Assembly: GCF_009914755.1 (NCBI RefSeq)
Contig: NC_060928.1
DNA: 64,000 bases
Reading direction: 5' to 3' (one strand)
Origin: the human T2T-CHM13v2.0 reference genome, Homo sapiens
Numbering within the stretch: the first letter of the stretch is position 1; each line of letters begins with the position of its first letter. The notes beneath the pieces are model-generated. The model was not told the DNA's origin. It saw only the letters and a list, made by a program, of their open reading frames with translations, and searched no databases. Made by a program: the position numbers and the translations under genes. This document shows, piece after piece, positions 28,804 to 43,994 of this stretch.

Positions 28804-29623
28804 TCAGACAGTCTCTGCTCTTTCTCTCAGTCCGAGATAGGCCAGGAAGGAGTGTTTGGGTGAGGGGATGCTGGGAGGCGCAGTCTGAGGTCGGGGAGGG
28901 TGGAATGTGAGATCCAAGTGGTTCTTGGGGTATAACATTGTCAAGGGAATGAGATGGGCAAAATCTGAGTTCCGGTACTTGTCAAAGCGCAAAGGGGAGC
29001 CGTTGAAGGCCAAAGCCTTGAGTGCCAGGTTGGGCTCTGAGCTGCTGCCGTGGGCTGCCGACAGGGCCACGGTCTGCAGAGCCTGGGAGGCAGACATAAC
29101 TGACAGGGGAGACAGGAGATTCCGGGAGCTCCCGACCACCAGGAGCGGGGCCCCCGGGCCGGCCGGTTCCTTGGGGGCTGGACACAGGCCCTTCTTGTCC
29201 TCCTCGGGGCAGTCCCCACTCTGGTGCTTCTTGACGTGGCGGCTGAAGACGAAAGGGTGTGTGGTCTTGAACAGGCACTCTTCGCAGCTGAAGGTCTGGC
29301 GTGGGGCGTGCTTCAGCTTCTTGTGCAGGTTGAGATTGTCCTTGCGCTTGCAGCTGTAGCTGCACTGGTCACAGTGGAAGGGCCGCTCCCCGGTGTGGAC
29401 GCGCACGTGCTCGATGAGCTTGTTGGCGGTCTTGGACAGGTAGCCGCACTGGTCGCACTTGTAGTGGTTGCCCAGGCGGTGCTCCCGGGTGTGCGTCTCC
29501 AGCTCCAGCTGGTTGGCCTTCACCGTCTGGCAGATCCGGCACTTGTACTCCATCTTGTAGTGGGTCTTGAGGTGGCACTCCATGGCAGCGGGGCGGTTGG
29601 TGGAATAAATGCAGAATGGGCAC
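28804..29623 (-). CDS. ZNF827: ZNF827 terminal exon open frame: 272 codons with 5 C2H2 fingers plus tail (long isoform)
   Basis: Acceptor gctttccccggcag|G at 29623. The upstream exon ends in phase 2 (AA), giving AAG TGC CCA TTC TGC (K-C-P-F-C). There are five C-x2-C-x12-H-x3/4-H units, a TGERP linker and strong third-position GC bias. TGA at 28804-28806. Confidence 0.85.
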
Positions 29624-31114
29624 CTGCCGGGGAAAGCAACGCAAGGGAGGTTCAGCCGGGAAGGTTCGGAGGCAGCCGCGCTTCTCGCCGCCTCACCAGC
29701 CTTCCCTCACACCACCCCCCAGTGTCTGAGGCCTGGCCTGCCCAGCCCAGCCCAGCCCTGCCGCCTCTCAGGGGTGGAACGGCCCTTTTTGGCTCTCCCT
29801 GCTGACAGAGCAGTCCCCGCTGACAAGCAGCTCTGGCAAGGTCCGCTCAGCCTATTCTGGGTCTCTTGGCCGATACAGGCAAGGCCAGCCCTCACCAAGG
29901 GGAGCAGAGAAAGTGCCAGGAATCAATTTGCTGGTGCTCCCCTCCAGCCCCCGCCCGGCCCCTCGGAGCCCTCCCCACTCCCGACCAGACAGCGCAGAGG
30001 TCTAAACCTCCTGACCTCCCCTCTAGATGGGAGCAACACAAAGAATCGACTTTTCATGCACCACACCAAGCACACGCAGAAAGGCTAAGAGGTTTTAAAG
30101 AACAGCTTATAGGGGGAGCGCTACCTCCAGCAAACAGAAAGTCACAGGGGTCAGAATCGTGCTTATTAAGGGTTTGTTAGGATGAGAAGGCCTGTGTGTG
30201 TCTCTCTGTGTGAGTGTGTGCATGTGTACATATCTATGTACTCGTAAAACATATCTCCCTACAGGACTAGCTCTTTGTCAGGAAAGGAAGCTGAGGACTA
30301 TGGCAGGGGCATGGGAGGAGAAGGAAGCCCACCCAACGGCCCATCTGCTAATGAGGAAGGGAGGAGGGAGGGAGACAACTGCTATCTGGAGCTCGAAGAC
30401 ATTATTAATACATGATTATGCCGGAGATAGGATAATAATCCAACTGGATTGGAAATTCTCAGAGGGCAGGACCATATCTTACATTTCCTCTGCATTCTCT
30501 GCAGTGCTTGGTAGAGTACTTAACACACGGTAAGCACTCAGGACATACTGGTTCATTATTTGAGTGGTCTCTACAGGCAATTTAGGTAGATTCTGGAAGG
30601 GCGGATGCTGGTCCCAGCTCCATCACCTTGTCAGGCTGGAGCTGGACACCCTAGCCTGGGCCTCTCTGTGGCTCGGTTTCTCCATCCTTTGCAGTGAGGC
30701 TACGCTACCACCAACCCTCCTGGCTGTCCAGAGGGGCCACGAGGAGTGGTGAGGCCATGTTAACAAACTCTGCTGAGCCTCTCTTTTAGAAGCTGCCAGG
30801 CTGGAGTCAGTGGCTTATATGAGAACTGTAGTGTGTTTGCTCTCTTTCCACAAAGAATGCAGATGCAAAAGTGGCTGCCTCAGCTCTTGCTTGGCTCCTG
30901 CAGGGCAGGGCTCAGGAGTGGACTGTCCTCGGAGGGTCTGGAGAGGTGTTCAGCAGAGCCCAACACAACCAAGTGCACCGTGCACGGCCTCCTCAGCGCC
31001 AAGCTCGCCGTTAGCCTTTGAACCTCAGCTCACAGAAGAGTGCACACGAGAGAAATATAAAGCCCATTCCCAGGTCAGGTGCACACACAACCCCTACGCC
31101 AAGCTGGGCCTTAC

Positions 31115-31147
31115 CTAGAGGAGTCTGAAACTCACCACTGTCCTGAG
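31115..31147 (-). CDS. ZNF827: ZNF827 small cassette exon (33 nt, NSGQW*; or 12 nt using an internal donor)
   Basis: Acceptor attatttttcttttgccgtag|C at 31147. Donors TG|gtgagt (exon end 31136) and AG|gtaagg (exon end 31115). TGA at 31132-31134. The peptide matches a recalled ZNF827 isoform end. Confidence 0.8.
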   Translation of the reverse strand, partial: LRTVVSFRLL

Positions 31148-31426
31148 CTACGGCAAAAGAAAAATAATAGTATAATCTTATTTGATCTGCATTATGAACA
31201 GGATATAGAGTACAAGCAGTTCCATCACAGAAAAGCAATTTAGACATCAGCAGTCTGTTTCATTTTAAGGACATTTCTGTGACCCACAGCTCAATCTTTC
31301 TTTCACTGCTCAGGCAAAGTGCTAAGGGTTTTCCGTGCTCCCGTTATTTTCTTAAAGACACTCTCTCAGGCAAATTAATTCTCTGATATGGCAAAGGAAA
31401 CAAAACAAAACAAAACAAAGACTCAC

Positions 31427-31493
31427 TGTATAGCCAGAAGGCATTATCAATTTTTTCAAAGTATTCTTCTACTTGGTCATCCTAGAACATAAA
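31427..31493 (-). CDS. ZNF827: ZNF827 alternative stop-containing cassette exon (NLCSRMTK*; coding 31469-31493)
   Basis: Branch-point-like TGCTAAC, then cgtcccctgtgtaatag|T. The phase-2 join gives AAT TTA TGT TCT AGG ATG ACC AAG TAG. Donor ACA|gtgagt follows 31427. The peptide matches a recalled ZNF827 isoform end. Confidence 0.75.
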
Positions 31494-33012
31494 CTATTAC
31501 ACAGGGGACGGTTAGCACCGCACGGGAAGTGTCTGTACCAGCAAAAGCATCAGAATTCACTGTGCATTCTCCCCAATGGCTTCAGAGGCTGGGGACTTTG
31601 GAGGTCCCTGAGGAAAGGCGAACTGGCAAAGCCACAACTGGCAGGGGCTGCAATGTTCATGGGTGTGACTGGGCTACTGGGAAGGGCAGTGAGCACTGGT
31701 CCAACCACAGAAAAACATGGTTCTGGTGTTTCTCTTTTTAAAATGAGAGCACACAAATATTTATAAAGGGACAGTGGGAACAAACCAAATCAAATCCCCA
31801 AATAAGCTCTTCCTAGGCATTTCCCATCTACTGGTTTCCTTGAATTATAATCACCCCCTCCCCAATCCCTTCTGCCCTCCCCTCCCCCTCCCCCAAGAGT
31901 GAAACGAAATGGAGTTCAACGGAGGTCCTGTTGTTCCCTGACTCTTCTATGTGGGGGAGTTTTTGAGGAGGCAGGGGCCTGGGGGGACCCAACCTGCACT
32001 GACCCCAACACTCCACTCCCAGGGTCTTTTCCATCTCTCCCTTCCTCACCCATCTAGGGGAGTCATGCCACCTCTCTGGCAGGTTGTGCGTTTCAATGAC
32101 GAACATGTTTTAAAACAAAAGGTTTTTTCCCCCTTGTGTTAAGTAAAATGTAATTTTTCATTCAACATGATCGTTTAGCTGAGAATTAGTAATTATGCCT
32201 TGAAAACTGTGTCTTTCTGTGTCCTCCTACCTGTGCTGCTTTCTCTTTACCAGACCCTAAGTGCCTTGTGAACAGGGACTCTGATTTCACTGTGCAGATG
32301 AGGTAGTACTAGGACATACATTTCTTGAGGGTGGAAATGGTGTTTTATTCCTGTGTGCCTGTTGGCACCTGTTATCAAGCCAGACACACAGTACGTTTGA
32401 TATTAGTTGATTGGTCTCACTTGAGACCAAAGGGCCTCTTGAAAATACTGGTTAAAGATGATGCTCGTTGTCTAGATCTTGGGAAGAAGACATCAGTATG
32501 TTTGCAGGAGGATCATGAAGCACATGATCGTTGCATGAAAAATGTTGCTTCCTGCCTGTTCAAACTGTCCAATTTTGGAGGGTGGGGTGGTTGCAATGCT
32601 TACTTAAAGGATATGTAGCAAGCCATCGGAAAAACAGAGAAGGTGAATCTCGGTCACAGTATGATTTATGCTTGGGGACACTAAGCCCTGAGTCCATTAA
32701 AATCAAGTCTGAACAAAACTCAAGCAGTGTAGTCTATTCTTGCATGCTGGGTTGTTTCAACATGTCTTTTTTCTTGCCCTGAATCCCGGGGTATTTGCAA
32801 AATGGATTCTCCTACTGACATCTGTTGACACCCTAGGGGGACAGGTCTAATTCAATCCAGCTAAAGGCAGCAGGGGTTCCTGACTAACTCCTCTCATACC
32901 AAGCTCCCCTTCTCCATGACTCCCAAAACCTTCACGGGAAGGGACGGGGTAGGGAAGGGGAAAGGGTATTTAATAACAACGCAGTAAAAGGTTCTGTACT
33001 TGCTTTCCTTAC

Positions 33013-33190
33013 TTGAGCCCACCGGTGGGGACAGTGTGGCATTTCTTATGCTCCAGCAGCTGTTCGGGGGTCTTCATGAACTTGTGGCACACATCACACT
33101 CAAACATCCGGGTGATGAGGTGTATCTGCAGATGACGCTCAAACATGTTCTTCGTCTTGCAGACAAAGTTGCAAAAAACACATTCGAACC
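33013..33190 (-). CDS. ZNF827: ZNF827 exon with two C2H2 fingers (GFECVFCNFVCK...HKKCHTVPTGGL)
   Basis: ccttgcag|GG acceptor, AA|gtaagg donor; 178 nt, phase 1 to 2. Confidence 0.95.
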
Positions 33191-43822: not shown

Positions 43823-43994
43823 CTGTAATAATAAGGATGTTTCTTCCCATCACTGCCTTCAGAGGTGACGGCGCTGACAATGTCCTCGGTGTCTGTACTC
43901 ACCAGCTTCACGGAATGGACGGTCAAGTGCTGGTTCAGATTTGCACGGCACTTAGCAGCATAGGGGCACAAGTGGCATTTGTATTTTCTTTCCT
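43823..43994 (-). CDS. ZNF827: ZNF827 exon with a C2H2 finger (EERKYKCHLCPYAAKCRANLNQHLTVH...KHPYYY)
   Basis: ttctcccccag|AG acceptor, CAG|gtgagt donor; 172 nt, phase 1 to 2. Confidence 0.95.

What the first reader, a model, noticed from the sequence alone, without database searches (positions are those of the whole stretch)
31109..31170. Dual-donor microexon: 12 nt keeps the frame, 33 nt adds an in-frame UGA
Seen (minus strand): ttttgccgtag|CTCAGGACAGTG|GTGAGTTTCAGACTCCTCTAG|gtaagg. The internal donor GTGAGT overlaps the TGG-TGA codons. Using it gives a 12-nt exon and the in-frame peptide GGL-NSGQW-CPFC, with four net residues inserted just before the first Cys of the next finger. Using the distal donor includes UGA and removes all five fingers. 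The same bases therefore act as either stop codon or splice donor. With skipping and the upstream 67-nt exon, four C-termini are possible. Inference: a compact splice switch controlling finger number.
Basis: partly seen in the sequence, partly recalled or inferred. Interest (0 to 1): 0.8.

Follow-up and report, generated by a model that had tools for sequence, protein, structure and literature searches.

The report
ZNF827 terminating exon with inner donor
A 33-base exon of human ZNF827 ends the protein before its last five zinc fingers, and it also holds a strong inner splice site that would leave a 12-base in-frame insert and keep the fingers; that insert appears in mouse, hamster and bat gene models, but its use in humans is unproven.

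Summary
The sequence is exactly as described. On the minus strand, exon 31147..31115 (33 nt, annotated) has a good acceptor, an internal GTG|GTGAGT donor after nt 12 and the annotated TAG|GTAAGG donor. Skipping gives GGLK-CPFC plus five C2H2 fingers. The 33-nt form gives GGLNSGQW*. The 12-nt form gives GGLNSGQW-CPFC, a net gain of 4 residues.

The internal donor scores about as well as the annotated one. Three of 192 ZNF827 orthologue cluster representatives carry exactly the 12-nt junction peptide: Mus musculus X8, Mesocricetus auratus X3 and Myotis davidii X2. Six end in NSGQW*. The hub's human RefSeq table has no 12-nt exon, and I could not look at RNA-seq reads.

An acceptor 5 nt inside the exon gives KTVVSFRLL*. 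The exon starting at 31493 gives NLCSRMTK*. Extensions of the upstream donor give GGLK*. All three appear in orthologue models.

A stop overlapping a donor is a generic property of GTGA/GTAA donors in this phase, and it recurs at the upstream exon.

Verdict: a real long/short (14- versus 9-finger) isoform switch. The 12-nt route is plausible and probably minor. It is a new member of a known kind, of modest interest.

The parts
31115..31147 (-). 33-nt cassette exon of ZNF827 (annotated). It reads (AA)C TCA GGA CAG TGG TGA and ends the protein as ...GGLNSGQW*.
   Evidence: hub RefSeq table; 6 of 192 orthologue representatives end in NSGQW.
31136..31147 (-). Proposed 12-nt in-frame microexon (same acceptor, internal donor). 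It replaces K with NSGQW just before the first Cys of finger 10.
   Evidence: translation. The exact junction peptide is in P0002, P0015 and P0026. It is not in the hub's human RefSeq table.
31130..31135 (-). Internal donor hexamer GTGAGT (context GTG|GTGAGT).
   Evidence: Recalled weight matrix 9.51 versus 9.85 for the annotated donor. Duplex with the U1 5' end -9.2 versus -9.9 kcal/mol.
31132..31134 (-). In-frame TGA overlapping the internal donor, 17 nt upstream of the last exon junction.
   Evidence: the hub CDS ends at 31132.
31109..31114 (-). Annotated (distal) donor GTAAGG of the 33-nt exon.
31148..31170 (-). Acceptor region: pyrimidine-rich tract (16 of 20 positions pyrimidine), a TGC at -8..-6, then AG.
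31115..31142 (-). 28-nt version of the exon from a second acceptor 5 nt inside it (ctcag|GACAGTG). It reads K TVVSFRLL, and the TAG stop is the last 3 nt of the exon.
   Evidence: translation. 4 of 192 orthologue representatives end in GGLKTVVSFRLL. Not in the hub's human table.
33013..33190 (-). Upstream coding exon (fingers 8 and 9), ending ...GGG CTC AA. Its donor GTAAGG gives an in-frame TAA (33011..33009) when the annotated alternative donors at 33004 (GC) or 33000 (GT) are used, giving ...GGLK*.
   Evidence: hub table; 11 of 192 representatives end in GGLK.
28804..29623 (-). Coding part of the last exon: 272 aa with five C2H2 fingers, stop at 28806..28804. This stretch is 3' UTR in the selected RefSeq transcript.
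   Evidence: 68-100% identity to the 120 listed ZNF827 orthologues, from mammals to sharks.
31427..31493 (-). It reads ...GGLNLCSRMTK*.
   Evidence: translation; the same C-terminus is in P0166, Pipistrellus kuhlii X2.

Best explanation
This is an alternative-splicing node in ZNF827 between fingers 9 and 10. It decides whether the protein is the long 14-finger form or a short 9-finger form. Skipping the 33-nt exon joins ...GGLK to CPFC and gives the long form, which is the one conserved down to sharks. Including the whole exon through its annotated GTAAGG donor brings in TGA 17 nt before the last junction. By the 50-55-nt rule that message should escape nonsense-mediated decay and make the short protein ending NSGQW. 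The internal GTG|GTGAGT is a second, real but probably minor, 5' splice site. When it is used, only 12 nt stay, the G that opens the last exon rebuilds the Trp codon, the frame is kept, and a long form is made with NSGQW in place of K. That lengthens the finger-9/finger-10 spacer from 8 to 12 residues. Shown here: the sequence, the frames, the donor strengths, the annotated 33-nt form, and gene models with the 12-nt junction in three mammals. Inferred: escape from decay, use in humans, low abundance, and any effect of the insert.
For: Sequence and frames. Donor strength: the internal donor scores 9.51 and -9.2 kcal/mol, the annotated distal donor 9.85 and -9.9, and both beat the annotated donors at 33013 (8.14, -5.0) and 42540 (6.89, -8.1). 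Orthologue models, 192 cluster representatives pooled and classified: 142 long with K-CPFC; 3 long with NSGQW-CPFC (P0026 Mus musculus X8, P0015 Mesocricetus auratus X3, P0002 Myotis davidii X2), none labelled low quality; 6 ending NSGQW*; 4 ending KTVVSFRLL*; 11 ending GGLK*; 1 ending NLCSRMTK*. In Pipistrellus kuhlii the two overlapping frames NSGQW* (P0158) and KTVVSF... (P0171) together force the DNA to read TGG TRA GY, so a GTRAGY donor motif is kept there (my deduction). Control: at a stronger unannotated internal GTGAGT in exon 43823-43994, 0 of 113 representatives that hold the upstream anchor lack the segment, so model builders do not use every such site. Distances from stop to last junction are 17, 0, 5 and 9 nt for four of the truncating routes. 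Long forms have 14 fingers and short forms 9. Passages of PMC10933417 describe ZNF827 with nine fingers.
Against: No transcript reads could be examined. The hub's human RefSeq table (16 transcripts) has no exon 31136-31147, although human data are the deepest of any species. The three orthologue models are automatic predictions. A model builder that favours long open frames could pick the internal GT only to avoid the TGA, and my control site has no stop to avoid, so it does not exclude this. A 12-nt exon is well below the size at which acceptor and donor are easily recognised together (recalled knowledge). The supplements of the MicroExonator mouse paper (7 files held as text) contain neither Zfp827 nor ZNF827, though the files may list coordinates or be cut. 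Clustering at 90% hides isoforms, so 3 of 192 says nothing about how often the form is annotated. The turtle model lacks both the donor and the stop.
Confidence: 0.6

Rival explanations
1. The internal GTGAGT is not used as a splice site in vivo. It binds U1 and helps define this very short exon, so it raises use of the annotated downstream donor. The 12-nt models in other species are artefacts of annotation that maximises the open reading frame.
For: The two donors lie 21 nt apart and pair with U1 about equally well. The hub's human RefSeq table lists only the 33-nt form. Recalled from the literature and not checked here: an upstream competing 5' splice site can speed splicing at the downstream one. 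One search shows that strong internal GTGAGT motifs can sit unused in exons.
Against: Three species from two mammalian orders carry the 12-nt junction in models not flagged as low quality. At the control site, 0 of 113 representatives use the internal motif.
Confidence: 0.25
2. The GTGAGT is only a by-product of the codons TGG TGA followed by GT and has no role in splicing. The exon is a simple terminating cassette.
For: The stop must lie there to give NSGQW*.
Against: Only the TGA is needed for termination. The AGY that follows is fixed in bats by a second reading frame (KTVVSF), which is itself a product of alternative splicing. The orthologue models with the 12-nt junction also speak against it.
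Confidence: 0.1
3. The 12-nt form is a regulated, tissue-specific (for example neuronal) microexon with a function of its own. It keeps the long protein in cells that activate this acceptor, and it changes the spacing between fingers 9 and 10.
For: The length is 12 nt and in frame. There is a TGC at -8..-6 of the acceptor behind a pyrimidine tract; a UGC close to the 3' splice site is a recalled feature of SRRM4-dependent microexons. NSGQW is identical in human, rodents and bats, and NGGQW in a turtle.
Against: There are no expression data. NSGQW is also the tail of the short form, so its conservation need not reflect the 12-nt form. I found nothing in print and nothing in the MicroExonator supplements.
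Confidence: 0.2

Closest known systems
Alternative 5' splice sites within one cassette exon (competing or tandem donors)
   Same: There is one acceptor and two GT donors 21 nt apart of similar strength. The choice of donor changes the exon length and the reading outcome.
   Different: Here the shorter product is only 12 nt. The longer one carries a stop that is part of the shorter one's donor, so the choice is between termination and read-through rather than between two peptide inserts.
Neuronal microexons (3-27 nt, SRRM4/SRRM3-dependent; criteria recalled)
   Same: 12 nt, frame-preserving, a UGC close to the acceptor, and a peptide conserved among mammals.
   Different: Tissue specificity and SRRM4 dependence are untested. 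The microexon is nested in a larger annotated exon. The donor is absent from the one reptile model seen, so conservation is not vertebrate-wide.
Cassette exons with a premature stop (poison exons) versus decay-escaping truncating exons
   Same: Inclusion of a short exon brings in an in-frame stop.
   Different: The stop lies 17 nt from the last junction. By the 50-55-nt rule (recalled) the message should be stable and make a truncated protein. That form is in fact the hub's selected RefSeq isoform, and its finger count (9, by orthologues) matches the nine fingers that PMC10933417 describes.
In-frame stops built into the 5' splice-site consensus (GTAA/GTGA), which end translation when a donor is bypassed
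   Same: TGG|TGA-GT here and AAG|TAA-GG at the upstream exon's donor both end the protein when splicing moves downstream.
   Different: Nothing in principle. This shows that the stop-or-donor overlap is ordinary.

Membership tests
Alternative 5' splice-site event | A second GT donor with a good consensus match inside the exon | tested here: met
   GTG|GTGAGT: recalled weight matrix 9.51 (34 of 6369 GT sites in the window score as high or higher) and U1 duplex -9.2 kcal/mol.
Alternative 5' splice-site event | Transcripts that use each donor | tested here: inconclusive
   The distal donor is annotated in human (hub table). The internal donor appears only in predicted isoforms of mouse, hamster and Myotis davidii. 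No reads were available.
Microexon (neuronal, SRRM4-type) | Length of 27-30 nt or less and a multiple of three | tested here: met
   12 nt; the frame is kept.
Microexon (neuronal, SRRM4-type) | UGC motif just upstream of the acceptor, behind a pyrimidine tract (criterion recalled) | tested here: met
   TGC at -8..-6; 16 of 20 upstream positions are pyrimidine. A single trinucleotide is weak evidence.
Microexon (neuronal, SRRM4-type) | Neural-enriched inclusion and dependence on SRRM4/SRRM3 | not testable with these tools
   No expression or perturbation data are held. The MicroExonator supplements hold no Zfp827/ZNF827.
Microexon (neuronal, SRRM4-type) | Deep conservation across vertebrates | tested here: inconclusive
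   NSGQW is found in human, rodents and bats. The Pelodiscus model has NGGQW followed by K and a 51-nt read-through, so no donor at that place. Other classes show only K-CPFC in the representatives seen.
Decay-escaping truncating exon | Stop less than 50-55 nt upstream of the last exon junction | tested here: met
   17 nt. The rule itself is recalled, and mRNA stability was not measured.
C2H2 zinc fingers (the region switched on or off) | C-x2-4-C-x12-H-x3-5-H motifs and a Pfam match | tested here: met
   Five motifs in the 272 aa of the last exon. PF00096 scores 25.9 bits (cut-off 25.2) and PF13909 39.8 bits (cut-off 27).

The most novel reading that the evidence does not exclude
The exon is a three-state switch. 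A tissue-specific activator of the UGC-bearing acceptor, for example SRRM4 in neurons, would by default truncate ZNF827 to 9 fingers. A regulated shift to the inner donor turns the same inclusion event into a 12-nt microexon that restores all 14 fingers with a longer finger-9/finger-10 spacer. Donor choice, not exon inclusion, would then set finger number and DNA-binding register. The mammal-specific change after the Trp codon would have made the stop and the escape route in one step, out of an older in-frame 51-nt exon still seen in a turtle.
Probability: 0.15. Interest if true: 0.55.

Novelty: new member of a known kind. Interest (0 to 1): 0.3.

Why it matters
ZNF827 recruits NuRD to telomeres, binds single-stranded DNA in the ATR-CHK1 pathway, and lies at a cardiovascular risk locus. 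The passages I saw describe it with nine fingers (PMC10933417). That is the short form made by this 33-nt exon. The form with five more fingers is the one conserved from sharks to mammals, and in the hub's selected human transcript it lies in the 3' UTR. Knowing which splice routes at this node give long or short protein, and in which cells, bears on how experiments with ZNF827 cDNAs and knock-downs should be read. The 12-nt route is a small addition to that picture. It would matter mainly if it proved to be regulated.

Tried and rejected
1. RNA structure that could hide or present the inner donor: the fold of 31076-31195 (minus) gives -27.2 kcal/mol and z = +0.67, with 149 of 200 shuffles folding as well. 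I rejected this idea.

2. Literature: ZNF827+microexon (1 paper, about circZNF827 only, passage seen); ZNF827+isoform+zinc fingers (4 listed, none on this event by title or abstract); Zfp827+SRRM4 (1, irrelevant); Zfp827+alternative splicing+exon (6 listed; passages of two read, which only mention the gene); ZNF827+alternative splicing+exon inclusion (the same review). PMC13161183 passages say nothing about isoforms. I found nothing in print on this exon in these searches. Subscription papers and most supplements are not covered.

3. MicroExonator paper PMC7821500: 7 supplementary files, 0 occurrences of Zfp827 or ZNF827. This is a weak negative.

6. Conservation of the hexamer at the DNA level across vertebrates could not be tested, because no vertebrate genomes are held. 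I used orthologue protein models as a proxy.

7. I did not fold the long form with and without the insert, because a model would not decide whether the 4-residue change matters.

8. MaxEntScan and SpliceAI are not on hand. I used a recalled, approximate weight matrix and a U1 duplex energy instead, with the window's annotated donors as yardsticks.

Full report
**Observation.** Read on the minus strand, the window holds ttttgccgtag|CTCAGGACAGTG|GTGAGTTTCAGACTCCTCTAG|gtaagg. The 33 nt run from 31147 to 31115, which is the exon in the hub's RefSeq table. The upstream coding exon ends ...GGG CTC AA at 33013. The last exon starts G TGC CCA TTC TGC at 29623.

I joined the exons by coordinates in a script, with these results:
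- Skipping gives ...HTVPTGGLK-CPFCIY...
- The 12-nt exon (31147..31136) gives ...GGLNSGQW-CPFCIY..., 335 versus 331 residues counted from exon 33190.
- The 33-nt exon gives ...GGLNSGQW followed by TGA (31134..31132).

The G that opens the last exon rebuilds the Trp codon. The GT of the inner donor is the last base of TGG plus the first base of TGA. The last exon encodes 272 aa with five C2H2 motifs and a stop at 28806..28804. It matches the Pfam C2H2 families.

**Is it more than chance?** I used an approximate 5' splice-site weight matrix recalled from memory.
- The inner donor GTG|GTGAGT scores 9.51 and the annotated donor TAG|GTAAGG 9.85.
- The annotated donors of two neighbouring ZNF827 exons score 8.14 (33013) and 6.89 (42540).
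- 34 of 6369 GT sites on both strands of the window score as high as the inner donor, about one per 3.8 kb of strand.
- Duplex energies with the 5' end of U1 agree: -9.2 and -9.9 kcal/mol, against -5.0 for the 33013 donor.

So the site is as good as a real donor. A control warns against reading use from the motif alone. Exon 43823-43994 holds an internal CTG|GTGAGT that scores 10.55 and would also keep the frame. It is not annotated, and none of the 113 orthologue representatives that hold the upstream anchor lacks the corresponding 27 residues.

**Evidence from relatives.** No vertebrate DNA is held, so I used protein models. Three searches gave 192 distinct cluster representatives of ZNF827, from mammals to sharks. 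I classified them by what follows the motif ...H-T-V-P-T-G-G-L:

| Representatives | What follows GGL | Reading |
|---|---|---|
| 142 | K-CPFC, long | exon skipped |
| 3 | NSGQW-CPFC, long | exactly the 12-nt product (P0026 Mus musculus X8, P0015 Mesocricetus auratus X3, P0002 Myotis davidii X2) |
| 6 | NSGQW, then the end | 33-nt product (two Pipistrellus species, Phodopus, Dipodomys, Spermophilus, one unnamed) |
| 11 | K, then the end | extension of the upstream donor |
| 4 | KTVVSFRLL, then the end | second acceptor, see below |
| 1 | NLCSRMTK, then the end | exon starting at 31493 |
| 2 | KHPEEPEEI, then the end | bird models |

Nine lacked the motif. The remaining 14 were single or rare other forms.

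The database is clustered at 90% identity, which hides isoforms. These counts therefore show that a form is annotated, not how often.

The three 12-nt models are automatic predictions. None is labelled low quality. I could not see their read support, and a builder that favours long open frames might choose the inner GT to avoid the stop.

- *KTVVSFRLL\*.* The human sequence gives this tail if a second acceptor 5 nt inside the exon is used (ctcag|GACAGTG, exon 31142..31115). The stop is then the TAG that forms the last three bases of the exon.
- *NLCSRMTK\*.* The human sequence gives this tail from the exon entered at acceptor 31493, whether it ends at 31427, 31154 or 31115.
- *GGLK\*.* The annotated alternative donors at 33004 (a GC donor) and 33000 read AAG TAA.
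- *Frameshift.* The second acceptor combined with the inner donor leaves 7 nt and shifts the frame.

One species, Pipistrellus kuhlii, has models with four of the truncated ends, and each is identical to the human prediction.

Its two overlapping frames, NSGQW-stop and K-T-V-V-S-F, together allow only TGG TRA GY at the inner donor. A GTRAGY motif is therefore kept there (my deduction).

In the turtle Pelodiscus (P0103) the homologous exon reads NGGQWKSFRIAQEKYRLM before CPFC. That is a 51-nt in-frame insert with Lys after Trp, so it has neither the stop nor the GT. The stop-plus-donor therefore looks like a mammalian change to an older in-frame exon. This rests on one reptile model.

**How it most likely works.** The node chooses between a 14-finger and a 9-finger ZNF827.

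The truncating routes all place the stop close to the last junction:
- 17 nt for the 33-nt exon.
- 0 nt for the 28-nt exon.
- 5 and 9 nt for the extended upstream donors.
- 42 nt for the 67-nt exon, if it is joined directly to the last exon.

By the 50-55-nt rule (recalled) these messages should escape nonsense-mediated decay. That fits with the short form being the hub's selected RefSeq isoform. It also fits the published description of ZNF827 as having nine fingers in two clusters (PMC10933417, passages).

The inner donor gives a way to include the exon's first 12 nt and still make the long protein. It replaces K with NSGQW and lengthens the spacer between the last His of finger 9 and the first Cys of finger 10 from 8 to 12 residues. 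The residue two places before that Cys changes from Leu to Gln.

I expect the 12-nt form to be minor, for three reasons:
- The downstream donor is slightly stronger and nearer the next acceptor.
- A 12-nt exon is hard to define.
- Human RefSeq lacks it.

The acceptor has a TGC at -8..-6 behind a pyrimidine tract. This resembles the recalled signature of SRRM4-dependent microexons, but a single trinucleotide proves little. No stable RNA structure surrounds the exon (z = +0.67).

**Rivals.**
- The inner GTGAGT may serve only to recruit U1 and help define the tiny exon. In that case the 12-nt models would be artefacts (0.25).
- It may be a mere by-product of the codons (0.1).
- The 12-nt form may be a regulated microexon with its own function (0.2). 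This is a stronger version of my reading, not a separate alternative.

**Comparison with what is known.**
- Competing 5' splice sites, microexons and truncating cassette exons are all well-known kinds.
- A stop that doubles as a donor follows from the GTGA/GTAA consensus in this intron phase. It occurs a second time 1.9 kb upstream in the same gene.
- The 33-nt exon is annotated.
- The 12-nt form exists in public predicted models of three mammals. It is not in the hub's human table, nor in the papers my searches reached.
- The MicroExonator supplements hold no entry for the gene.
- Paper reading closed, so other microexon catalogues were not checked.

**Verdict.** The finding is a new member of a known kind, with interest 0.3. 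The more useful by-product is that the hub's selected human ZNF827 transcript, and the nine-finger protein described in the passages I read, correspond to the short form. The deeply conserved five-finger tail sits in that transcript's 3' UTR.

Noticed in passing
window 28804-29623 (-): In the hub's selected RefSeq transcript this stretch is 3' UTR. Yet it encodes 272 aa with five C2H2 fingers that are 68-100% identical in the 120 listed orthologues, down to sharks. Long orthologues have 14 fingers and short ones 9. The passages I read of PMC10933417 describe nine.
   Followed up: partly
window 31142-31144 (-): A second acceptor lies 5 nt inside the 33-nt exon (ctcag|G). It gives a 28-nt exon whose last three bases are the stop, with tail KTVVSFRLL. 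Four orthologue models carry this tail (Thomomys, Myotis lucifugus, Pipistrellus kuhlii, Erinaceus). It is not in the hub's human table.
   Followed up: partly
window 33000-33012 (-): The upstream exon's donor GTAAGG supplies an in-frame TAA. The annotated alternative donors at 33004 (GC-type, weight-matrix score 2.54) and 33000 (1.18) are weak, yet they give the GGLK* end seen in 11 orthologue representatives.
   Followed up: partly
window 43898-43906 (-): An internal CTG|GTGAGT sits inside coding exon 43823-43994 (last exonic base would be 43904, score 10.55). It would remove 81 nt in frame (LVSTDTEDIVSAVTSEGSDGKKHPYYY). It is unannotated, and 0 of 113 orthologue representatives use it.
   Followed up: yes
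P0103 (Pelodiscus sinensis X3), residues about 362-379: The turtle model reads the homologous exon as an in-frame 18-residue stretch NGGQWKSFRIAQEKYRLM with no stop. This suggests the mammalian stop and inner donor arose within an older in-frame exon.
   Followed up: no
P0175, P0176 (bird models): Bird short forms end GGLKHPEEPEEI*, a different tail at the same junction. The P0176 cluster has 524 members. Truncation after finger 9 may be reached by different routes in different classes.
   Followed up: no
window 31154 (-): The RefSeq exon 31154-31493 ends inside the acceptor region of the 33-nt exon, at the G of the TGC motif. What follows (CCGTAG) is not a donor, so this looks like a transcript 3' end rather than a splice site.
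   Followed up: no
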